Shown in pieces: positions 1 through 45,135 of a DNA stretch of 64,000 nucleotides. The notes beneath the pieces are model-generated. The model was not told the DNA's origin. It was given only the letters and a program-made list of their open reading frames with translations, and made no database searches. This stretch comes from Arenicellales bacterium (lineage in GTDB: Bacteria; Pseudomonadota; Gammaproteobacteria; Arenicellales; JAJDZL01). The position numbers and the translations under genes were made by a program. The number at the start of each line of letters is the position of its first letter. Within the stretch, counting starts at the first letter, position 1. Where the stretch lies: positions 1,488,838-1,552,837 of the forward strand of contig CBDEVD010000006.1 in NCBI GenBank assembly GCA_965243645.1, written 5' to 3'.

Positions 1-1229
1 TCTGGTGTTATCTTCCTCAAGTTAATGCAAATGTTTGACACCTCGTTCGGCATTGCAAGTGAAGTTGAGTTTGAGTCTAACGACAATGCTCGATGAACTG
101 TTTCGATTAGTGCCAAAAGGCCTTCGGGAGAACGGGATAGTACATACATGTCATCGGCAAACCTAACAAACGCTCCTCGAAAATTTCCGTCTGTTCTTTC
201 CAGATAATTAAGAACTTCTTGGTCCGCTTGCATCAGCATAACATTGAACAACACCCCGGAGATGGCAAGACCTGTAGGAATTCCATCATACGAACTTTCG
301 CTTATTTTCGGTAACCGATGATTCTTTGGTTTGCTCCAAGAGTCTGGGGGTATATCACTTGTTTCCAACGTGACATTCTTCAAGGCGTTCATTAATCGCC
401 TGCCAATTTCTACTCTGATTTCTTTTTTAGATATCGCTTCCAACACTTGTTCAGGACAGCCGTCGTATAGCGAATGGAATTCTTGCGATTGTTGTGATTC
501 TACCGGTTGTTTCAATGCTGCTTTCATTGATTCAGCCAACTGAGATAGTCGAACCGATGGATAAGCCAATTCAATATCCAAAGATGCCCAGTATGCACAA
601 GGTGGGTCGAGTGAATTTTGCCACCAATCATCTCTTGTCCATTGAGGCAACATCAGTGGGTCGTAATCATTAGGATGCTGAATTTGGGCGGTTTCATCTT
701 CTGATGGAAATTCTGCATTGGTCATTCGAGCGACAGTCCAATGTGCCACACGCCGAAACAACCCGTGGGACCGCGCATAAGACAGATAAGTCCGATCTGA
801 GAGCACTGGATATGGGCGGTTCTTCCATCCAGGAGACTCTTGTCGATAATCCCAGGCTATCGGTCGATACAACCTATTCCCAAAAGCGAAATTTTTCACT
901 TGCCGATCAAGAATTGGTCCCAGCACCACCATGTGAGCCATAAATGCCACTTGATCCCGTACCGTTGGCATCATGTAGTGCCTCAGTCGAGCACCTTTTT
1001 TCGGGTACGGGATTTGCCGCCATTTTTCTGGCTTCCAGCGATTTTCCCGCAACTCAATTGCTAAATTTCGAAGCATTGCTTCTGGATACAGCTGCCACTT
1101 TGATAATTCTGGTTCCGGTGGCAACTCCCCATATTTGTACCAAGACTGTATTCGCATCCATGCTCCCTTCAGTATTACAGGATTTCCTAGTACATCAGCT
1201 ACTCTCTGTACGTTGTTGTTTGAATTCAT
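1..1229 (-). CDS. Reverse transcriptase, N-terminal 410 codons (C-terminus lies beyond the left window edge); unclassified bacterial RT, possibly defence/Abi-like
   Basis: Hand translation of the minus strand from ATG at 1229 stays open to position 1. It is absent from the ORF track because no stop lies in the window. RT motifs occur in order: IPYPKKGARLRHYMMPTVRDQVAFMA (motifs 1-2), ASLDIELAYPSV (motif 3/A), GIPTGLAISGVLFNVML (motif 4/B), FVRFADDMYVLS (motif 5/C, xADD box), NICINLRKIT (motif 6-like). Confidence 0.85.
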   Translation of the reverse strand, partial: MNSNNNVQRVADVLGNPVILKGAWMRIQSWYKYGELPPEPELSKWQLYPEAMLRNLAIELRENRWKPEKWRQIPYPKKGARLRHYMMPTVRDQVAFMAHMVVLGPILDRQVKNFAFGNRLYRPIAWDYRQESPGWKNRPYPVLSDRTYLSYARSHGLFRRVAHWTVARMTNAEFPSEDETAQIQHPNDYDPLMLPQWTRDDWWQNSLDPPCAYWASLDIELAYPSVRLSQLAESMKAALKQPVESQQSQEFHSLYDGCPEQVLEAISKKEIRVEIGRRLMNALKNVTLETSDIPPDSWSKPKNHRLPKISESSYDGIPTGLAISGVLFNVMLMQADQEVLNYLERTDGNFRGAFVRFADDMYVLSRSPEGLLALIETVHRALSLDSNSTSLAMPNEVSNICINLRKITP

Positions 1230-2157
1230 TGTTTATTTTGTGCTTAAATTCAATTTCGGATAGTAGTTTTCGTACAATTTCGATGGGGAACCAAGGTACT
1301 CAATTTAATGATTTGATGACTTAGCATACTATCAATGGAGATAAGAAGTGGCATTTCTTGTATTCGAGTGTTTTTTCAGAAGGCAGAGAATATTTTTGTT
1401 TGTCCCACTGAGGAAGACTTTAGTCTTTCAGACTATACACCGATGCAAAAACTCTTGGGATAGAAGGGAGAGACCAGTTGATGAAAGTTGGTACTCTTGC
1501 GCTCGTGAATTGATCAAGATTTATTGGGAACATTACGACATATCATCCCATCTCTTGTAATCAACTAGCTCGCATAATATCAGTACGCTGTGGAAAGACG
1601 CTCTGAGTTTTTCAGGTCTGCCGTTGGACTCGATCGATCCGAAATCGTGGTGTGAGCAAAAGCAAATCGCACCTAGCGATGGGTATCATTGCGAAGCACA
1701 AGCCGCTGGCGATGCACGATATTGAGGTTGATCGGCACCGCCGTGCAATCAAGGGTTTCGGGCCCAGCCACCCGATCGAGCCGGTTCACGGCTACTGCCA
1801 TGATTTCCTCTCGGTGTGCGAGGCGGACGAGAACATACTGATGTATGCTGACCCGTCGTACGAGTGGAGCAAACGCAAGGCGTCGAATCGCTATCGATAC
1901 TAGTATGAATTCGAGACCAGGACCATTGTGTGCTGATCGGAATCCTGCGGTCTTGGGCGAACCCGGTGATGTTTGCGGGGAATCCGAAAGCAATTCGCTT
2001 GAATTGTCCAGTTATCGTCACAGTCGCACACTGAATGTACAATACTTACCCCAAGCGACGGTAACTCCATCGACTGGAAAACCAGTTGAGCACATAACTC
2101 AACAACATTTCAGAACCAACCTTTCCTCAGCCTGTAACGAATTTAAGGAAATCAGCC

Positions 2158-3624
2158 ATGGATCAATTTCAGCACTACATTGACGGTCACTTCGAAGACG
2201 GCACCGCCACTTTCGAAAGCGTAAACCCAGCAACCGGCGCTACGTGGGCATTGATGCCAGAAGCACGTACCGACGATGTAAATCAGGCAGTAGAAGCAGC
2301 AGCTCGGGCACTTCGCGACCCCCGGTGGACAAAACTCAGTGCAACGGGTCGCGGTAAACTGCTGTATCGATTAGCCGAGTTGGTTGAAGCAAATGCAGCG
2401 GCAATTGCGAAACTGGAAACGCGCGATACTGGCAAGATCATTCGCGAGACCTCTGCACAAATCAAGTACGTCGCCGATTTTTACCGGTACTATGCAGGGC
2501 TTGCTGACAAAATGGAAGGCGCACATGTACCGATCGATCGACCCGATATGGAAGTCTGGTTGAAACGAGAACCCATCGGCGTTGTTGCAGCCATCGTACC
2601 GTGGAACAGTCAGCTGTTTCTGGCGGCAGTCAAACTCGGTCCAGCCCTTGCCGCCGGCTGCACGGTTGTACTCAAAGCGTCGGAGGATGCTGCGGCACCG
2701 CTGCTCACATTTGCCAAACTCATCGATGAAGCGGGCTTTCCACCTGGAGTCGTTAATGTCATCACTGGGTTTGGTCCCGAGTGCGGATCAGTCCTGGCTT
2801 CGCACCCACTGGTCTCTCGTGTTGCGTTCACAGGTGGACCGGAAACCGCCCGTCACATCGTGCGTCATTGTGCCGAGAATTTGGCCAGTTCTTCACTTGA
2901 ACTCGGCGGAAAGTCGCCATTTATCGTCTTCGAAGATGCTGACATCGACAGTGCCGTCAACACACAAGTCTCCGGAATTTTTGCAGCCAGTGGACAGAGC
3001 TGTGTGGCCGGCTCAAGACTGATCGTTGAACGGTCCGTTAAGGACGAGTTTGTCGATCGTCTCAGGCAAGTCGCACAAAATGTCGTCATTGGCGACCCGT
3101 CTGAACAAAGCACTGAAGTTGGCCCACTTTGCACAAGTCGCCAACGGGAGTGGATCAACAAAGTGGTAACTTCATCGATCGATTCGGGCGCCAAATTGAT
3201 AGCCGGTGGTAAGAATCTCGATCGACCTGGATATTTCTTTCAGCCGACGATCCTGGATTGTTCTGAACAACCGGATGCAGCTTCGGTACACAAGGAACTC
3301 TTTGGGCCGGTACTCTCAGTGCTGACATTCGATACTGAAGAAGAGGCAGTCCAAATTGCAAACGATACACCCTATGGCCTTGCCGCTGGCATATTTACCC
3401 GCAATCTAGCTAAAGCACATCGAATGATCAATAACATTGACGCAGGATGCGTGTGGGTGAACACTTATCGCGCGGTCTCGCCAATCGTTCCCTTCGGTGG
3501 TCACGGCCTTTCGGGCTATGGCCGTGAAGGCGGTATACAAGCGGCACTCGAATATACGAAAGTGAAAAGTGTCTGGCTGAATACCTCAGACGATAAGATT
3601 CCAGACCCATTCCTGATGCGATAA
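2158..3624 (+). CDS. NAD(P)-dependent aldehyde dehydrogenase
   Basis: 488-aa ORF with ALDH signatures LELGGKSP (Glu region) and GQSCVAGSR (catalytic Cys). Confidence 0.9.
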   Translation: MDQFQHYIDGHFEDGTATFESVNPATGATWALMPEARTDDVNQAVEAAARALRDPRWTKLSATGRGKLLYRLAELVEANAAAIAKLETRDTGKIIRETSAQIKYVADFYRYYAGLADKMEGAHVPIDRPDMEVWLKREPIGVVAAIVPWNSQLFLAAVKLGPALAAGCTVVLKASEDAAAPLLTFAKLIDEAGFPPGVVNVITGFGPECGSVLASHPLVSRVAFTGGPETARHIVRHCAENLASSSLELGGKSPFIVFEDADIDSAVNTQVSGIFAASGQSCVAGSRLIVERSVKDEFVDRLRQVAQNVVIGDPSEQSTEVGPLCTSRQREWINKVVTSSIDSGAKLIAGGKNLDRPGYFFQPTILDCSEQPDAASVHKELFGPVLSVLTFDTEEEAVQIANDTPYGLAAGIFTRNLAKAHRMINNIDAGCVWVNTYRAVSPIVPFGGHGLSGYGREGGIQAALEYTKVKSVWLNTSDDKIPDPFLMR

Positions 3625-11486: not shown

Positions 11487-12851
11487 TTAGGGCCGAGTCT
11501 GCAAGCTGCCTAATAACCCATCCGCATACAAACTTGTGACATTCAATTTGACAAATTGATTTGACAAGTCTTGGTGACTGAAAAAGTAAATGGGGAGAAA
11601 ATTCGACAACCGCGACCGGTATACCGAATTTTGTTGATTCACCGGCCCTTCAACGAGAGCGGTACCGGTTTGGTTAACATAGCGTTCCAGTACAGTTTTG
11701 CGAACCGCTTCACCGGCTTCTCGCAACTTGCGGGCGCGCATTTTTCGAATGTCATGTGGCACCTGGCGCGGAATTCGTGCGGCAGGTGTATCGTCCCTTT
11801 CCGAATAGGCAAATACATGCGGATAAGTAATTTCCAGATCAAATATTGCCTGCCGCGTCAATTCAAAATCCGCGTCTGATTCGGTTGGAAATCCCGCCAT
11901 GATGTCGGCTGACAAAATCAGCTCGGGTCGAACTTTGCGAAGCTCAGTCACCACATCATAGACCACGTCGGGGCCATAGCGGCGCTTCATACGCTTGAGA
12001 ATGATCGGTGCAGCACTCTGCAAAGAAAGATGAATATGGGGGCAGATATTGTCATGTTGCGCCATGGCATCAATCAGGTTAGGGGTAATGTGTGCCGGGT
12101 CAATTGAACTTAAACGAAAGCGGCAATTGGGATGCCGCGCAGCCAACTCAGCAGTCAGTACTGCAATATCAATGTTCTGCTGTTTACCAGCGGCTAAATC
12201 CGCACCGTAAGAGCCCAAATCAATACCGCAAATGACAATTTCCGCAAATCCCTGACTGACGTATTGTTCCACCTGACGCATTACTGTCGTGGGTGAAATA
12301 GAACGGCTCGCACCGCGTGCTTTGTGGATGATGCAAAATGTACAACCGTTGTCGCACCCTTGCTGGACCTGCAAGTTGGCTCGACTACGCGTTTCAAATC
12401 CGGCGATGGCCTTTACGGGTAACGAAACTTGGGAATCGGTTTGGTCTAGCGGCAACAGGGACTCAGCAGGAATTTCACCCGCGATGAGTTGTGGAATCTC
12501 AAGTTTTCTGCTACCAGGAACGACGTAATCAACGCCCGGAATGCTGGCGCACTCGTCAGGCTGCATTTCTGCGTAGCAACCGGTTACGATGATTGTCGAG
12601 TCGGGATGCTTGCGTATAGCACGGCGAATCGTCTGGCGCGACTGGCGGTCAGCTTCGCGAGTCACCGTACAGGTATTGATAATACAAATTCCGTTGGCGT
12701 CGCCTTGTTTTTTAGACAACTGACGCGATTGTATCTGGTTGGTAATGTACTCTGACTCGAACAGATTGACTTTGCAACCCAAGGTCTCGACAACAACCGA
12801 GCGCGGGTCTTGAACAGAGTCAATTTGCAAAGGTGCTGACATGGAACGCAA
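11487..12851 (-). CDS. MiaB/MtaB-family radical-SAM tRNA methylthiotransferase
   Basis: 454 aa; N-terminal UPF0004-type domain ([14 protein letters not shown]), [15 protein letters not shown] radical-SAM motif and a TRAM-like C-terminus. Confidence 0.8.
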
Positions 12852-26889: not shown

Positions 26890-27071
26890 TGTAAATTCAA
26901 CTGATAGTATTTGACCTGATTCAGACCAAAATGTGCCATGTCATCAGGTATACAAATTGTTCAGGTAGCACGACACCGGCGTGATTAGATTGTGCAGGAA
27001 GCTGCGAGTTCACTACCAGATCGAATTTACAGCAACAAAATACTGTGTCAAACTGGTGTGAAGCGAAGTAA

Positions 27072-27083
27072 TTGGCGTCCCCA
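27072..27083. repeat. attL-like direct repeat TTGGCGTCCCCA (copy of the tRNA-Glu 3' end)
   Basis: Identical 12-mer occurs at 38634-38645 inside tRNA-Glu. The left copy continues as a degenerate tRNA 3' half (..AAGAGGAATTGATTCGCACC). Confidence 0.65.
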
Positions 27084-27111
27084 AGAGGAATTGATTCGCA
27101 CCTTAGGGAGC

Positions 27112-27297
27112 ATGCCAATTTCGATTACTATAATTGATCCTGAAAGAGTACCAGTGTATCAGAGAATAGCTTCCGAAGTATTGCGTCTAAAAGATCTTGG
27201 ATATAGCCAGAACAAAATCGCTCGAACTATAGGAGTTCACTCTAAAGTTGTTGCCAATGCCATTAAATATCAAATGATAAGAGACGAAAAATCATGA
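27112..27297 (+). CDS. Small helix-turn-helix protein (resolvase-type HTH)
   Basis: 61 aa from ATG 27112. The track ORF from 26992 crosses the att repeat. GYSQNKIARTIGVHSKVVANAIKY looks like an HTH_7-type motif. Its stop overlaps the next start (ATGA). Confidence 0.5.
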   Translation: MPISITIIDPERVPVYQRIASEVLRLKDLGYSQNKIARTIGVHSKVVANAIKYQMIRDEKS

Positions 27298-27863
27298 GTA
27301 AGAACGAGTGGACATTAACCCAGATTTCGAATCTACTGGACCAACCACAGTACAGATTGATTTATCTTTGTGAAAAAGGTGTCATCGTACCTGATGGAAG
27401 TGATGCTAAGGGCCGGGGGAGCAGTCGACGATTCTCAGCACGAAATTTGTTTGAATTTGTCGTGGCCCTTAAATTAAGCGAGTTTCATTTACCGACAAAA
27501 TTAACTACAAACGTTCTTAAAGCGCTTCGATCATTTGACAAGCATCTAGGAGAAAGCTATCCAATGCTGAAACTCCCCTATTCACTCAGAATTCCAAACT
27601 CTCCTGAAGTGAAAATAGTTTTGATCAATGGCTCACGTCTGTACTTTTCGATCGGAACCAAGGGTAGAAAAACCACCTATATCGGTGATTTAGATTTGCT
27701 GAACTTCGACAAATATACGGTTTCAAACAATGCTACAGATAATCTCGCTAAGTCTGCATTTCCGATTGAACGGACGAAAACTCTTCCGATCGAGTCAAAA
27801 ATCGCATCGTTTGAATTAAACCTGTCTCAGATAGCAAAAAATATTTCACTGGAATCGGTTTGA
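27294..27863 (+). CDS. MerR/excisionase-like HTH protein with an uncharacterised C-terminal domain
   Basis: 189 aa; N-terminus WTLTQISNLLDQPQYRLIYLCEKGVIVP...GRGSSRRFSARNLFEFVVALKL follows the MerR-type winged-helix pattern. Translationally coupled to the preceding gene. Confidence 0.55.
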   Translation: MSKNEWTLTQISNLLDQPQYRLIYLCEKGVIVPDGSDAKGRGSSRRFSARNLFEFVVALKLSEFHLPTKLTTNVLKALRSFDKHLGESYPMLKLPYSLRIPNSPEVKIVLINGSRLYFSIGTKGRKTTYIGDLDLLNFDKYTVSNNATDNLAKSAFPIERTKTLPIESKIASFELNLSQIAKNISLESV

Positions 27864-30208
27864 TACAGTTTAAACAGGTTTCGATGAAACTACAAATTAT
27901 TCGGTGTGGAGTTTGCTTTGCTATTCGACGGAATTTATGAGCGGCTTTATGTATTGACGCTTTCTTTCGTAGGACACCTTGCAACACAATCAATTTTGGG
28001 GCAATTTTTCGAACAGAATTCTTTGATTCAAGCAGCCATGAGACCGTATTGAATGAGTTTTCAGGATCAAGCCGGAATTAATCGTATCCGAGACGCATTA
28101 TGGCAAAGATTACCTGGAGCGACCGTTATGATAGGTGCAGGATTCAGCAAGAATGCAGAGTCTGCTCAAGGGTCGATGCCCAGTTGGACTGAACTAGCAC
28201 AGTCAATGTGCGAACAATTGTATCCAGATGAAAAGGACCAGCAACGGACGATTTCATTAGCTGCTAGCAATACTACAAGCGGCGCACTACGCCTTGCGCA
28301 GGAGTATAAAGTTGCGTTCGGGCGTAGAGATCTCCATAGATTCCTAAAGAAACATGTCAATGACCAATTGGTGCAGCCCTGTGATTTTCACAAACGGCTA
28401 CTCCAACTTCCTTGGCGGGATGTGTTTACCACTAATTGGGATACGCTACTGGAAAGGGGCCGTTCAATGGTTATAAATCCCTCCTATAGCGTCGTGAACA
28501 GTATTGACGAAATTCCAATTTCTCCAACTCCAAGAATTGTAAAACTGCATGGGTCCTTAAATGGGCATTTCCCACTCATCTTTACAGAGGAAGACTATCG
28601 AACTTTTCCTCAACGTTTTCCTCCTTTTGTGAATATGGTTCAACAATCAATGATGGAATCTGTTTTCCTTTTACTTGGATTTTCTGGAGATGACCCAAAT
28701 TTCTTGCATTGGTCTGGCTGGGTTCGCGACAACCTTGGTGAATCTGCGCCAAGAATTTTCTTGGCTGGGTGGCTGAATTTGTCTAATCACCGCAGAAGAA
28801 TGCTTGAATCTCGCAACGTCGTTTCTATTGATCTCGCTTGCCATCCAAAATCAAATCAGTGGCCACATTCTCTAAGGCACAAAATAGCGACAGATTGGAT
28901 ATTACGATCATTGGAATATGGTCGCCCGTATGAAGTATCTGAGTGGCCATCTCCGCCTCGTCGAGCAGTGGAGTCCGTGGAATCGCACCTAAAACCTATT
29001 CAGACCGTAATGCTGTGGGAACCGAAAGCAGAACCGCAGTTAATTTCTGAACATGGACAAAACGGCACTGAAAAAGTAGAGAAGGTTAGAAGACTGATAG
29101 AGGTTTGGTCCTACAACAGGAAAAACACATATCCAGGTTGGCTGACAGCACCATCAAGAATAAGAACAAATATGTGGTCTACAAGTGAATATGCTAAGGA
29201 TATCTTGGATGAGTTACCTCGGTTTCTCCCTATGGAAAGACTGCTGTCGATTCGAGAACTAACGTGGCGATGGGGGATTATGTTGAATCCATTATCCGAA
29301 GTTGAAGAATTGTCCACAAGACTTGAGAGGGAATCGTCGAACGTTCTAGCAAGTGTAGACTGTTCTCAGCGAAAGGTAGGAGGAGTCAATGTATCGGGCG
29401 CAGAATGGCCAGAGGTTCTAGAAGCTTGGATTGAGCTCAACTTAGCTTTGATGACGTCTGCACGCCATCGTTTTGACAAAAATAGTTTTGAGAGTCGAAT
29501 AAGTTCCGTTCTACCTTTCAAAGATGAAAGTGACGAAATTAATCACCGGATTATCCATGAACAGTGTATGTGGGCAGTTTTCTCATTAGATTTCGTTTCG
29601 CTAAAAAAACTACTTGATGAGTGGGACTGTGGCTCTACGGACCCTGTTTGGATGATGCGTAAGGCGGCACTACTATTCGAAATTGGGGAAGACGAACAGG
29701 CGGAAGAGGTAAACGCATTTGCACTGGCAAAGATTCAACAGAGTAACAATAATCACCAAGATATTGAATTGTCATCCAGAGAAGGTTGGGCTCTGTTTTG
29801 TGCAGGACAATCGTCTGAAGTGGAGGAGTTTTGGTATGCCTCTACCGAGTGGCAACATCGCTGGGATCGGTTTACGCCAATCCAGTGCAACGCGTCTTTG
29901 GAAATGAAACGCTACGAAGACTCCTTCCAAGTAACTACAACCCCGGAAGGAGGTCGACCATTTGACCTTGGGCATGCCTGGGTAGGTGGTTTTTCCTTTT
30001 CGATGAATGCTTACAACCGGTGGGTAGCCGCGCACAGAGCGGTTCGACTTGTCGAGGTTGCTGGTTTGCCTCCTAGAAGGGGCAATATGACGGTGGCATC
30101 AAAACTTCTCGAACTTGCAGCGCGAAACTTGATTACACACGAACCAGAACTAGCGACACGCTTAGTTCTTCGTGCGGCTGAGTATAAAAGTCAAGGAACA
30201 CTCAATTG

Positions 30209-36538: not shown

Positions 36539-36809
36539 TTACGAACACCTATGGATACGAATCTCAATCATTCGTAGGATGGGAAAAAGAAAGTTGTACT
36601 ATGATAAATCTGTTGAGCGATGTACCGTTCGACAAGGTGGTTCGTTGATGTACGCCAATATTGATGACATGACAAGTAATTCATTATGCGTTCCAAACAA
36701 AGTATGCCATCTATTGACTTATTCGATCAGTTTAAGTAGTAGAAAATTATCGTAATATGCATTCATTTGTGATAAAATAATAGATATATTATATATATTA
36801 TCTTGAATT

Positions 36810-36965
36810 ATGAATGCACAACAATTACTCAATAACGAGCACTTTTTCAATTCCGATTCGAATGATGTATTCGATGAACTAATTGATCACATCGGAAGTT
36901 TACTTGCACAAGAGTACTTCCAAATTGTGGAAGATGAGAGTCCGGTCGAGGATGATGCAAAATGA
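36810..36965 (+). CDS. Possible small acidic protein (51 aa) immediately upstream of the serine recombinase
   Basis: Hand-found ORF MNAQQLLNNEHFFNSDSNDVFDELIDHIGSLLAQEYFQIVEDESPVEDDAK, below the track cutoff. It ends 16 nt before the recombinase ATG. No family recognised. Confidence 0.25.
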   Translation: MNAQQLLNNEHFFNSDSNDVFDELIDHIGSLLAQEYFQIVEDESPVEDDAK

Positions 36966-36981
36966 ATAATGGAGAATTAGT

Positions 36982-40369: not shown

Positions 40370-40647
40370 GGCTTACATTTCCCGCGGCGATGCGTGACAA
40401 TCCGTTTTGGCAGTGGAGACTTTTCAATGTCGAGACCAAAGGCATCATTGCTGTGGTCGAAAATCGCACCTGACATAAATCAGGACAAAGGTGCGCATCA
40501 ATGTCAGTGGTGGACCCGAGTAAAATTGATTTGAATTCTCGCGAGTGTATCAACTACGTGAGATTAATCGAACCAATAAGGCTAACATCTCCTCGACAGT
40601 TATACTTCTTCACGATTCATAATGTTAATTTAATATACAATCAAAAT

Positions 40648-40665
40648 ATACATATTTATATGTAT
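40648..40665. promoter_or_regulatory. Perfect palindrome ATACATAT-TT-ATATGTAT upstream of phd (candidate operator)
   Basis: 8-bp arms with a 2-bp spacer, 31 bp upstream of the TTG start that has an AGGAG RBS. Phd/YefM antitoxins autoregulate through palindromic operators. Confidence 0.4.
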
Positions 40666-40695
40666 TTTGACCTACTCAATGACAGGAGCTTGAAA

Positions 40696-40944
40696 TTGGA
40701 AAGAATCTTGGCAAATAAAACCGTGTCCCTTACCGAACTTAGAGACCCCGCAAAAGTACTAGCAGGAGCAGGCGAATCACCGGTTGCGGTTTTAAACCGC
40801 AGTAACGTAGTCGGATATTTTGTACCAAAATCAGCGGTAGATAACGTAGATTTCAGGTACGCCGACACCGTTGATGTGCAAAAAACTGTTGATGAGTCAA
40901 TTGAACAAAACAAAGAACTACTTGACTACCTAAAAGACAAATAA
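40696..40944 (+). CDS. phd: Phd/YefM-family antitoxin
   Basis: 82 aa from TTG 40696 (AGGAG 7 nt upstream). An in-frame ATG at 40660 lacks an RBS. ..KTVSLTELRDPAKVL....PVAVLNRSNVVGYFVP.. pattern. Confidence 0.75.
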   Translation: MERILANKTVSLTELRDPAKVLAGAGESPVAVLNRSNVVGYFVPKSAVDNVDFRYADTVDVQKTVDESIEQNKELLDYLKDK

Positions 40945-40945
40945 A

Positions 40946-41317
40946 TTGGAAATCTTACGCAGTGTGGGTGTGCTGAACATTCACGCAAAGGTCATTAGCC
41001 CACAGGAGCTGCAAGGCCTAGCAGGCAATAAATCTTTGGAGGCAATCATCCATCGTATTGAGAATCGCATCCTCTACGGGATGATTGGAGACGTGTACGA
41101 TCTTGCCGCAACTTATGCTGTTGTAATTGCGGTTGACCACGTGTTCAATGATGCAAATAATAGAACAGCGGTTATCGCAATGGATACGGCTTTGCGTAGA
41201 AACGGAATCAGTTTAAGATTTGATGCTGAAAAAATGGGTCAAGTCATCATCAAGGTTGCACAGGGAATAGTTGACGAAACAGAATTGGCACGTCACCTTC
41301 GTTCTTTGTCGCAATAG
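40946..41317 (+). CDS. doc: Doc (death-on-curing) Fic-fold toxin
   Basis: 123 aa; Doc-type Fic motif HVFNDANNRTA (HxFx[DN][AG]NxR). Starts 1 nt after the phd stop. Confidence 0.85.
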   Translation: MEILRSVGVLNIHAKVISPQELQGLAGNKSLEAIIHRIENRILYGMIGDVYDLAATYAVVIAVDHVFNDANNRTAVIAMDTALRRNGISLRFDAEKMGQVIIKVAQGIVDETELARHLRSLSQ

Positions 41318-41432
41318 CAAATGCAAAGAAGAAAATTGTGATAATCGTAACTATTTACGACAATCAAGTTTAATTCGGAATAAAGTCATTAGCCGTTTAA
41401 CGATTTTCGATCATAACTGGAGGATTGTCCTA

Positions 41433-43418: not shown

Positions 43419-43599
43419 ATGCGTTTTCGATTTGCGTCAAATTTTCGAGTAATTGAATAAATTTATTGATTCGCAATTAGATCACATTCTGCCGAGTTGG
43501 TGTCGATTATGATCCACAAATTTCATAAGTGCTGTTAGAGAGCTTCCTTCTTTTGTACATTAGCAGCACCATTCCCAACAAGTCAGATCTCCGTTCCCT

Positions 43600-44106
43600 T
43601 CCACGATCTAACACCAACCCTGAATATTAATCGATATACGACAACCCTGAATCCGAGTGGATTTCTCACACTGACGAAAAACTAAAAATTGTTCCTCAAG
43701 ACCTTTGGGATGAAGTTAGTACAAAAAACTTGTCCGTAAAAGGCTTGGCCAGAAAGAAGAGGCAAACTGACCAACTTCATTGGAGAGGGCAAAGTGACCA
43801 TGTCCCTCAACCAAGCGTTGGTGAACACGTAAAACAAAGTAATCAATTTGAAGAACGAAATCGAATTTCTACAAAGCACCTATTCGAAAACCATAGAAAC
43901 GTCTTCTGTGGAGTGGATAAAGCAAAGACTATTCCAAATTCAATCGCTCCTGGAACAATAATCTGATCAATCCGCAATTGTGCTGCGAAAACTACTGAGG
44001 CTTATTGAACTCGAACCAGTTATATACGATACTGAAATACCGTCTTACATTGCACACACAAAGTTTGAAACGATTTCAATATAGGAAGACAGATTTACAC
44101 CTGCCT
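43600..44106 (+). pseudogene. Relic A of a large serine recombinase (3' part only; internal deletion, three in-frame stops)
   Basis: Reads NPESEWISHTDEKLKIVPQDLWDEV...NFIGEGKVTMSLNQALVNT*NKVINLKNEIEFLQ...AIVLRKLLRLIELEPV...YIAHTKFETISI*EDRFTP, colinear with the intact protein at 36982-38691. Cut off by the IS terminus at 44107. Left limit approximate. Confidence 0.75.
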
Positions 44107-45135
44107 TAGCCCGAGTTTACCGAGTTCATCAAAAAGAATCTGGTGAAATTGCTTCGATTAGTTCGATAGCGCTATTGTAACCCATTGACACAATGGAATT
44201 ACCTCCCGACTGTGTCGAAACAGTCAGGACTTAAGCAATTGTCTGGGTGTGGTGACCTAACCGGCTCGATAACGATCCAGCTGCAGTGCTTCGTATAACG
44301 TTTTCTGGACTTCAGACAAGCTCGACAGCGTCATCTGTATCTTCGGCGAGGTGCCTTTTCTGTTAGCCGGGTAGACGACACCGAGTTCTTTGATTGTTGC
44401 CAGCTCATCGAGTACCTGATGACACGAAAACGTGTGGCCCTCCTGATTGATCAGATGACGATACAGCAGGGTTTGTAACATCAGTGCCAGCACACAGATC
44501 AGTACATGCACCTGGATTTTCTGATCCGTCCAGTGATACTGGGGACGAATGGTAAGGTGGCGGGTGTCTTTGAGATCTCGAAAGGCGCACTCGACATGAT
44601 GCTGTGCGCGATAGCCGTGCACAATCTGTGCATCACTCCAGTCGCTACGGTCAGTGAAGATGAGATGCTTGCCAAGCAACGTGCGCTGCAGATGTTTCCA
44701 GGCCTGCCGATCAAAACGATAGGTCAGTTTAGGGATGTTTTGGTCGCTAAGTTGCACGGCAACCTTGAACAGATCTTTCATGTGCCGGGCTTTGACACAC
44801 TCGTTAACTTTTCTGTGCGTGCCGGCTACGGTTGGAGGTCGGCCTTTTTTGATGAGTCCCTGGTGCCAGCGCCGCAGCTGCCACTGAATCTCGTACAGTT
44901 GTTGCCGGCGCTTGGCAATCTCGCGCATCATGGTGGCTGTTTGGGTTTGTTCCAGATTCTGGTTTTTCGCCACCACCACCGTATACTCGCTCTGCCGTAG
45001 AGTTCTTTGGTGGTGCGCCAGGTGCTCACGCCCGGTATCTCATCGAGCGGTTGGAGCTGGCGCGCCGGCAAGTCTGGATGATGGGTCGGCACCAGGGAGC
45101 CGATCAGGTGATAAGGACTGTCGTGTACGGCGGCA
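44107..45135 (-). mobile_element. IS4/IS1634-like element, copy A: transposase-distal terminus plus the C-terminal ~290 codons of the transposase (frameshifted)
   Basis: Terminus TAGCCCGAGTTTACCGAGTTCA. ORF 44257-44979 (..HGYRAQHHVECAFRDLK..RPQYHWTDQKIQVHVLICVLALML..). The upstream part HDSPYHLIGSLVPTHHPDL lies in another frame, with the shift near 44985-45000. Confidence 0.75.

What the first reader, a model, noticed from the sequence alone, without database searches (positions are those of the whole stretch)
1..1650. Edge-truncated unclassified reverse transcriptase with ~420 bp of apparently non-coding DNA upstream
The RT is missing from the ORF track and has all core motifs, including an FADD catalytic box. 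Its spacing is unusual: about 115 residues between motifs 2 and 3, and about 75 between motifs 3 and 4. That is larger than I expect for group II intron or retron RTs. Its N-terminus also lacks the look of either. The gene and the 1230-1560 region are AT-richer than the adjacent aldehyde dehydrogenase gene, which suggests another accessory element to the left of the window. Upstream of the RT on the minus strand (1230-1650) there is no convincing ORF. There is a bulged hairpin CTGA-GG-AAGACT/AGTCTT-TCAG at 1408-1431. Several defence RTs (retrons, DRT2, DRT9) use an upstream structured ncRNA as template, so this region is a candidate, but I cannot show conservation or a fold from one sequence.
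Basis: partly seen in the sequence, partly recalled or inferred. Interest (0 to 1): 0.65.

Follow-up and report, generated by a model that had tools for sequence, protein, structure and literature searches.

The report
Truncated defence reverse transcriptase–nitrilase gene

Summary
The reverse transcriptase (RT) gene is real. Window 3-1229 (minus strand) is an uninterrupted 409-codon reading frame with an ATG at 1229, all RT motifs and an FADD catalytic box. It runs off the left edge.

Relatives in 38 species-representative genomes show the whole protein. It is about 1,470 residues: RT, then about 750 residues of unknown function, then a C-terminal nitrilase. In some genomes it is split into two overlapping genes of about 880 and 580 residues. 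The RT module is homologous to group UG6 of the UG/Abi defence RTs (hhalign probability 100%, E 1.5e-49), but only over the first ~580 residues. It scores 42-83 bits against the UG6 profile, where true UG6 proteins score 735-809. The best solved-structure match is DRT1, in both the RT and nitrilase domains.

Eleven of the 38 loci lie inside BREX anti-phage loci. Others lie beside restriction or methylase genes.

The upstream RNA idea finds no support. There is no Rfam match, folding is no better than shuffled sequence, and the hairpin is at chance level. The region resembles nothing in 52 related loci, and many relatives have under 110 bases upstream. Published work shows the nitrilase-linked RTs (class 3) DRT1 and DRT5 make DNA without any template.

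Verdict: an unnamed UG6-sister RT-nitrilase family of moderate interest.

The parts
1..1229 (-). The first 409 codons (RT fingers, palm and start of thumb) of a large RT-nitrilase gene. The gene continues past the left edge of the window. Full codons span 3-1229, with ATG at 1227-1229.
   Evidence: The frame is open. Pfam RVT_1 matches at E 2e-9. The best PADLOC hit is RT_UG6 at 71.8 bits. It is 62-66% identical over all 409 residues to the N-termini of ~1,470-aa proteins. The AlphaFold model has pLDDT 87.8 and pTM 0.91.
150..161 (-). FADD catalytic box (RT motif C, residues 357-360).
   Evidence: Read directly from the sequence. D359 and D360 are invariant in family alignment A1, and the matching positions are invariant in A4.
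576..578 (-). Codon of D218, the catalytic aspartate of RT motif A.
   Evidence: Invariant in A1 and A4.
1230..1650 (.). AT-rich (39% GC) non-coding stretch of the 928-nt divergent intergenic region between the RT gene and the aldehyde dehydrogenase gene. It most likely holds only the promoter and a short leader. There is no evidence of a structured or conserved RNA.
   Evidence: Searches are all negative. A promoter-like site lies at 1335-1308 (minus strand), but the number of such sites is not above the shuffled expectation. In close homologues a TTGAC box sits about 55 nt before the start codon.
1408..1431 (.).
   Evidence: The energy is -5.8 or -7.3 kcal/mol depending on strand. In 66 of 100 shuffles an equal or better hairpin appears.

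Best explanation
Window 1-1229 (minus strand) is the N-terminal RT module of a single large defence protein. In relatives this protein runs RT, then an alpha-helical region shared with UG6, then about 600 residues with no recognisable domain, then a C-terminal nitrilase (CN-hydrolase). The family belongs with the nitrilase-linked 'class 3' UG/Abi reverse transcriptases. It is the sister of group UG6 but is not a member of any named group.

The proposed mechanism rests on the characterised class 3 enzymes DRT1, DRT5S and DRT5L. The RT needs no RNA template. It primes on one of its own side chains and makes a short, semi-random single-stranded DNA adduct. This adduct governs the oligomeric state and activity of the nitrilase effector. 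The effector is released on phage infection and causes abortive infection.

The 420 bp upstream is ordinary promoter and leader DNA.

Shown here: the RT identity, the family architecture, the catalytic residues, the defence-island context, and the absence of a conserved or structured upstream RNA. Inferred: template-free protein priming, regulation of the nitrilase, and the anti-phage role. Also inferred is that the copy in this genome is full length.
For: **Identity**
- Open frame with intact motifs.
- RT_UG6 is the best of 43 PADLOC hits.

**Architecture**
- The closest genome homologues are single ORFs of 1,461-1,503 aa. Others are 860-930 aa plus 560-680 aa, meeting at fused residue ~893-902 with overlaps as short as 1-13 nt.
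- The C-terminal ~300 residues match RTasNitrilase (E 1e-36 to 1e-38), the UG5 nitrilase and Drt1a.
- Invariant E1212, K1286 and C1333 fit the nitrilase Glu-Lys-Cys triad. The Cys aligns with catalytic C1116 of DRT1 (PMC13275509).

**Relationships**
- Hhalign of the family against UG6 gives probability 100% and E 1.5e-49 over columns 6-581.
- The family profile's best solved-structure match is DRT1 (9YFD), E 5.9e-25, collinear through the RT and nitrilase domains.

**Defence context**
- Six loci lie between PglX (1,333 bits) and PglZ (1,009 bits), with BrxC (1,970 bits) further upstream.
- Five more lie beside another BrxC subtype (1,240 bits).
- One lies next to a type IIG restriction-methylase, and one lies 1.7 kb (three small genes) from an HmaB methylase.

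**No RNA**
- Searches are all negative.

**Literature**
- No ncRNA is known in class 3. Deleting the upstream region of a UG5-large system did not impair defence (PMC13436386).
Against: - The nitrilase part of this particular gene lies outside the window, so it could be truncated or decayed.
- Nobody has tested this family or UG6 experimentally. Mestre et al. 2022 rated the defence association of UG6 as inconclusive.
- Homology to DRT1 is remote. The DRT1 priming serine is not conserved in other class 3 RTs.
- UG6 and UG29 are linked to a DnaG-type primase, which hints at a different priming mode in that branch.
- The closest relatives are only about 63-66% identical in protein sequence. A fast-evolving, lineage-specific RNA therefore could not have been detected by conservation.
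- The window's right-hand neighbours are housekeeping genes, not defence genes.
Confidence: 0.72

Rival explanations
1. The RT is a template-dependent defence RT like DRT2, DRT9 or a retron. On this view the 420 bp upstream encodes its structured non-coding RNA template.
For: There are 420 bp without a credible ORF directly upstream on the RT strand, and a small hairpin at 1408-1431. Several UG/Abi RTs do use a neighbouring ncRNA. No relative is close enough for a covariation test.
Against: - No Rfam hit.
- The fold is no better than shuffles, and the hairpin is at chance level.
- No similarity to any part of 52 related loci.
- Many homologues have 0-110 nt between the upstream gene and the RT.
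- Upstream regions of 10 close homologues are not structured.
- Drt2, Drt9 and retron models score far below the UG6 and nitrilase models.
- The class 3 RTs tested so far are template-free (PMC13275509, PMC13436386).
Confidence: 0.06
2. It is a mobile retroelement RT, either a group II intron maturase or a retron RT.
For: Residues 49-122 resemble group II intron RT fingers (TIGR04416 E 1.9e-17). The top Foldseek PDB hits are group II intron and DGR RT domains.
Against: - TIGR04416 scores 63.5 bits against a cut-off of 300. The retron St85 model scores 21.9 against 235.
- Full-length homologues have no maturase or endonuclease domain and end in a nitrilase.
- No group II intron RNA or retron RNA family was found in window 1-2300 or in 7 homologue loci.
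- The Foldseek matches are generic RT folds with TM about 0.5.
Confidence: 0.01
3. The copy in this genome is a decayed remnant, an N-terminal pseudogene fragment of an eroded defence island, and is not a working gene.
For: The gene cannot be followed past residue 409. The flank holds an orphan 83-aa ORF with a weak Dam-like DPPY motif, which might be a methylase remnant. The neighbours to the right are housekeeping genes.
Against: All 409 visible codons are open, and every family-invariant residue is intact. The start codon coincides with that of homologues. The truncation is simply the window edge.
Confidence: 0.12

Closest known systems
UG6 (class 3 UG/Abi reverse transcriptases; family E of Kojima & Kanehisa; Mestre et al. 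2022)
   Same: The RT module and the following helical region are homologous over ~580 residues (hhalign probability 100%, E 1.5e-49). This includes the long insertion between RT motifs 2 and 3. Both are partnered with a nitrilase of the same RT-associated clade (RTasNitrilase is the best nitrilase hit). The split form of the family resembles the UG6 layout of an RT gene followed by a nitrilase gene.
   Different: - The family scores 42-83 bits, over profile positions ~4-370 only. True UG6 proteins score 735-809 bits end to end.
- The pseudokinase-like C-terminal domain of UG6 is not aligned.
- No conserved DnaG-type primase gene accompanies the family.
- The nitrilase is fused in the window's closest relatives.
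- About 600 further residues of unknown nature lie between the shared region and the nitrilase.
DRT1 / UG1 (PDB 9YFD; Neville et al. 2026, PMC13275509)
   Same: Both are a single polypeptide of RT, helical region and C-terminal nitrilase. DRT1 is the best solved-structure sequence match, collinear through both catalytic domains (E 5.9e-25). The nitrilase Cys aligns with DRT1 C1116. This is the most likely functional model: a template-free, protein-primed DNA adduct controlling the nitrilase.
   Different: The Drt1a profile matches only the nitrilase part and a few palm residues (52-76 bits). The family protein is about 250 residues longer. The S402 priming site is not conserved outside DRT1. 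Nothing has been tested experimentally.
UG5-large and UG5-small (DRT5L, DRT5S, DRT11; PMC13436386)
   Same: RT plus nitrilase occurs in both fused and split versions, as in this family. No ncRNA is present. Defence needs both active sites.
   Different: The UG5 profile matches only the nitrilase end (82-91 bits). The RT module is closer to UG6. No conserved transmembrane partner gene was found.
Template-dependent defence RTs (DRT2/UG2, DRT9/UG28, retrons)
   Same: They share the RT fold and a defence context.
   Different: Profile scores are very low (Drt2 29.1 bits against a cut-off of 390; Drt9 20 bits). No conserved or structured upstream RNA was found. These RTs are not linked to a nitrilase.

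Membership tests
Class 3 UG/Abi RTs (Mestre et al. 2022) | RT domain of the UG/Abi lineage | tested here: met
   The best PADLOC hit is RT_UG6. Hhalign against UG6 gives probability 100%. DRT1 is the best PDB sequence match for the family profile.
Class 3 UG/Abi RTs (Mestre et al. 2022) | Large protein (>1,000 aa) fused to, or adjacent to, a C-N hydrolase (nitrilase) or phosphohydrolase domain | tested here: inconclusive
   Met in every complete homologue: ~1,470 aa fused, or 880+580 aa split, with a nitrilase at E 1e-32 to 1e-38. It cannot be seen for the window's own gene, which is cut at residue 409.
Class 3 UG/Abi RTs (Mestre et al. 2022) | Extension of unknown function between the RT and the C-terminal enzyme domain | tested here: met
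   In homologues, about 750 residues lie between RT motif 7 and the nitrilase. They have no Pfam hit. The first ~170 of them are shared with UG6.
UG6 | End-to-end match to the UG6 RT profile (PADLOC RT_UG6, 925 positions) | tested here: not met
   The window fragment scores 71.8 bits and full-length homologues 42-83 bits, covering positions ~4-370. True UG6 proteins P0166, P0170 and P0177 score 735-809 bits over positions 2-923.
UG6 | C-terminal pseudokinase-like domain | tested here: not met
   The hhalign alignment ends at family column 581 and UG6 column 559. Nothing beyond that aligns.
UG6 | Associated DnaG-type primase gene (cluster 192) and a separate nitrilase gene (cluster 285) | tested here: not met
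   Clustering of neighbours across 38 loci finds no conserved third gene. I did not run a targeted primase-domain search on the neighbours. The nitrilase is fused in the window's closest relatives and separate only in the split subclade.
DRT1 / UG1 | Full-length match to the Drt1a profile | tested here: not met
   The scores are 52-76 bits, almost all in the nitrilase region.
DRT1 / UG1 | [quoted passage not shown] | not testable with these tools
   This needs biochemistry. It is inferred only from homology and from PMC13275509.
Group II intron RT/maturase | Passes TIGR04416, has maturase (X) and endonuclease domains, and has flanking intron RNA domains | tested here: not met
   TIGR04416 scores 63.5 bits against a cut-off of 300. 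Homologues have no such domains. Rfam finds no intron RNA in window 1-2300 or in 7 homologue loci.
Retron, DRT2 and DRT9 (ncRNA-templated RTs) | Adjacent conserved, structured ncRNA, and a match to the family's RT model | tested here: not met
   Scores against cut-offs are: retron St85 21.9 vs 235, Drt2 29.1 vs 390. No conserved or structured upstream RNA was found.

The most novel reading that the evidence does not exclude
Unlike DRT1 and DRT5, this UG6-sister RT-nitrilase family might be templated by a fast-evolving, lineage-specific RNA. Candidates are the 1230-1650 leader or the gene's own mRNA. Such an RNA would be invisible to conservation tests when the nearest relatives share only ~63% protein identity. 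That would make it the first RNA-templated class 3 UG/Abi system.
Probability: 0.05. Interest if true: 0.7.

Novelty: new variant of a known kind. Interest (0 to 1): 0.4.

Why it matters
The nitrilase-linked (class 3) defence RTs have only just been explained mechanistically, through DRT1 in 2026. UG6, the closest group to this one, is untested, and its defence role was rated inconclusive.

This family extends that class in four ways:
- It has 223 clusters at 50% identity with E<=1e-30 in public data.
- It is spread across at least eight phyla.
- It combines a UG6-type RT with a fused or split nitrilase and a ~600-residue region of unknown fold.
- It lies repeatedly between pglX and pglZ inside BREX loci.

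This offers a natural fused/split pair for dissecting how RT-made DNA controls a nitrilase. It is also a candidate abortive-infection back-up module for BREX. For the window itself, the practical result is a correct annotation and the removal of a speculative ncRNA.

Tried and rejected
- **Foldseek of the AlphaFold model against the PDB.** It returned only generic RT folds (group II intron, DGR, G2L4; TM about 0.5). DRT1 did not appear. That library stops at April 2026, so the search could not assign a subclass.
- **Pfam on full-length homologues.** It found nothing beyond a weak RVT_1 hit, so the middle region remains uncharacterised.
- **Metagenome scan for closer relatives.** The best hit was only 49-50% identical, so no covariation test of the upstream region was possible.
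- **ENA contigs of the closest proteins.** They added three more upstream regions. None resembles the window's.
- **Downstream regions of homologues.** They share only pairwise, gene-length similarities. No common non-coding element was found.
- **The short conserved block just upstream of the start in L002, L003 and L028.** It turned out to be a TTGAC promoter-like box plus a ribosome-binding region, not an RNA element.
- **Compositional argument for foreign origin.** I rejected it as weak.
- **The 83-aa ORF at 1652-1903.** It has no Pfam hit and no phage match. It shows only a weak Dam-like motif.

Full report
**1. The observation**

Window 3-1229 on the minus strand translates into 409 codons without a stop. 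The start is an ATG at 1227-1229, and an in-frame TAA lies two codons upstream. The ORF was absent from the mechanical ORF list only because ORFs that run off the source are not listed. Pfam RVT_1 passes its gathering score (37.8 bits against 29.6).

The RT motifs can be read directly:
- PYPKKGARLRH, residues 74-84
- PTVRDQVAFMA, 88-98
- WASLDIELAYPSV, 214-226
- GIPTGLAISGVLFN, 316-329
- FADD, 357-360 (window 150-161)
- NLRK, 403-406

The gap between motifs 3 and 4 is about 90 residues rather than 75.

An AlphaFold model built on 47 family sequences is confident (pLDDT 87.8, pTM 0.91). The inserted segments are well ordered.

The compositional contrast is real but mild. The RT is 45.1% GC and 1230-1650 is 39.2%. 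The window as a whole is 47.5%, and other gaps in it are 34-41%.

**2. What the gene is**

No curated family claims the fragment. Group II intron, Drt2, retron and Drt3a models all score far below their cut-offs. Among anti-phage models the best hit is RT_UG6, at 71.8 bits over a small part of the 925-position profile.

A search of 5.8 billion proteins found only 58 relatives, the best 63-64% identical. A scan of one genome per prokaryotic species found 38 loci. All are metagenome-assembled genomes. They come from Gammaproteobacteria, Acidobacteriota, Spirochaetia, Gemmatimonadota, Myxococcota, Chloroflexota, Planctomycetota and Bacillota.

In these loci the reading frame continues far beyond residue 409. 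The closest relatives encode single proteins of 1,461-1,503 residues. Another subclade has an RT gene of about 880 codons followed by a second gene of about 580 codons. The two-gene form breaks at one consistent point, residue ~893-902 of the fused protein. In 7 of the 14 split loci the second ORF overlaps the first by only 1-13 nt. This is a real fused/split pair rather than an assembly error.

The last ~300 residues are a nitrilase of the RT-associated clade: RTasNitrilase E 1e-36 to 1e-38, UG5-nitrilase 1e-24 to 1e-26, Drt1a 1e-15 to 1e-22. Invariant Glu, Lys and Cys residues fit the nitrilase triad. The Cys aligns with the catalytic C1116 of DRT1.

An exhaustive profile search of 1.84 billion cluster representatives found 223 clusters at E<=1e-30. 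Most are 1,400-1,650 or 850-900 residues long.

**3. Relationship to named groups**

The same search reached proteins of 1,016-1,087 residues at about 146-166 bits. The three I scanned proved to be true UG6 members. They match the UG6 profile end to end at 735-809 bits. Members of the present family reach only 42-83 bits, over profile positions ~4-370.

Profile-profile comparison shows unambiguous homology between the family and UG6 (probability 100%, E 1.5e-49). It covers the RT and the following helical region, columns 6-581 against 6-559, and nothing further. The long insertion between motifs 2 and 3 is part of the shared region, so the 'unusual spacing' is a trait of this branch.

According to Mestre et al. 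2022, UG6 has a pseudokinase-like C-terminal domain, a separate nitrilase gene and an associated DnaG-type primase gene. The family here lacks the first. It shows no conserved third gene. In the window's closest relatives the nitrilase is fused.

Against solved structures, the family profile's best sequence match by far is DRT1 (9YFD, E 5.9e-25). The matches are collinear in the RT fingers, the palm and both halves of the nitrilase.

I therefore place the gene in the nitrilase-linked class 3 UG/Abi RTs, as an unnamed sister of UG6.

**4. Genomic context of relatives**

Clustering all neighbouring ORFs shows that only the RT(-nitrilase) unit is universal.
- Six loci have the unit directly after a PglX methylase (1,333 bits) and before PglZ (1,009 bits), with BrxC (1,970 bits) further upstream. 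The unit is thus embedded in a BREX locus.
- Five more lie beside a second BrxC subtype (1,240 bits) and an M78-peptidase/HTH gene.
- One lies next to a type IIG restriction-methylase. One lies 1.7 kb, three small genes, from an HmaB methylase. One lies next to transposase genes.

This is the signature of a defence gene. In the window itself the visible neighbours are housekeeping genes: aldehyde dehydrogenase, an exodeoxyribonuclease VII large subunit-like gene and a GTPase. Any island must lie to the left of the window.

**5. The upstream region**

Every test of the ncRNA idea was negative.
- No Rfam family matches window 1-2300 at E<=1.
- The 421-nt region folds no better than shuffles (z = -0.75; 22 of 100 shuffles fold as well).
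- Its two 250-nt halves give z = +0.99 and 0.0.
- The hairpin at 1408-1431 is weak, and 66 of 100 shuffles match or beat it.
- Blastn of 900 nt upstream of every locus finds nothing shared with the window. The only cross-locus matches are upstream genes, or a ~60-nt block that holds a TTGAC box and a ribosome-binding site.
- Blastn and nhmmer of the whole 928-nt intergenic region against all 52 fetched loci give only chance hits (E>=0.05).
- The upstream regions of ten close homologues are not unusually structured (z from -1.07 to +1.91).
- In many homologues the preceding gene ends 0-110 nt before the RT start, which leaves no room for such an RNA.
- No known RNA family flanks the gene in seven homologue loci.

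The limitation is that no relative closer than ~63-66% protein identity exists in any collection searched. A rapidly diverging RNA therefore cannot be formally excluded.

**6. How it most likely works**

This part is inference from the literature.
[quoted passage not shown] They attach it covalently to the protein.
- In DRT1 the adduct drives the assembly of nitrilase tetramers into dormant filaments. Phage components reactivate these filaments and cause abortive infection.
- Both the RT and the nitrilase active sites are required (PMC13275509).
- A UG5-large system showed no flanking ncRNA by RNA-seq. It tolerated deletion of its upstream region (PMC13436386).

The family here has the same pair of catalytic domains, both intact. 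The most economical model is therefore the same: a self-primed, untemplated DNA adduct that gates a nitrilase effector. The ~600 residues unique to this family may provide sensing or assembly functions. The closeness to UG6, a group linked to a primase, leaves room for a different priming mode.

**7. Verdict**

The RT is real and is correctly flagged as unclassified. It is not a group II intron RT or a retron RT.

The proposed upstream template RNA is unsupported and, given the class, unlikely (about 5%).

The gene is a member of an unnamed, uncharacterised UG6-sister RT-nitrilase family. That makes it a new variant of a known kind of defence system, of moderate interest.

Noticed in passing
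L012-L016, L018-L021, L024, L026, L032, L010, L011 (junction near locus position 12,600); fused in L001-L003, L005-L008, L017, L022, L023, L028, L036: The family exists both as one ~1,470-aa protein and as two overlapping genes (~880 + ~580 aa). The split falls at the same point, fused residue ~893-902. In 7 of the 14 split loci the overlap is only 1-13 nt. This is a natural fused/split pair.
   Followed up: yes
L010, L013, L019, L022, L026, L034 (RT between PglX and PglZ); L014, L018, L021, L025, L032 (beside another BrxC subtype): Eleven of the 38 genome loci have the RT-nitrilase unit embedded in BREX loci of two subtypes. It may act as an accessory or back-up module of BREX.
   Followed up: partly
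window 1652-1903 (+): An orphan 83-aa ORF at host-like GC contains YADPSY, a DPPY-like methyltransferase motif IV. It has no Pfam hit and no phage hit. It may be a remnant of a DNA methylase.
   Followed up: partly
L050 3807-7919; also L004, L025, L027, L029-L031: In several long-read metagenome assemblies the RT-nitrilase frame is broken into pieces (for example 628 aa plus 685 aa). As a result, many database proteins of this family look like 430-710-aa RTs with no nitrilase. This is probably assembly frameshifts, or in some cases real decay.
   Followed up: partly
homologues, alignment A1 columns ~455-470 (just after the window fragment ends): A Cys-x2-3-Cys pair in a variable, proline-rich loop (GWxECxxCxQxxP), conserved in most family members, follows RT motif 7. 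DRT1 has its disordered priming loop in the same place. It could be a metal-binding or priming segment.
   Followed up: no
L001-L004, L028: Proteins about 62-63% identical to the window's occur in Gammaproteobacteria, Terriglobia and Vicinamibacterales alike. This points to horizontal transfer of the gene across phyla.
   Followed up: no
L003 2841-2957; L002 17374-20902: An ALIL pseudoknot (the IS3-type frameshift element) lies 7 kb upstream of the RT in L003. In L002, two tRNA genes and 23S and 5S rRNA genes lie 3 kb downstream of the RT-nitrilase gene.
   Followed up: no
window 26890-28052, 36539-36981, 40370-41432, 43419-44256: Several other stretches of 0.4-1.2 kb have no ORF of 200 aa or more and have low GC (34-41%). 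I did not examine them.
   Followed up: no
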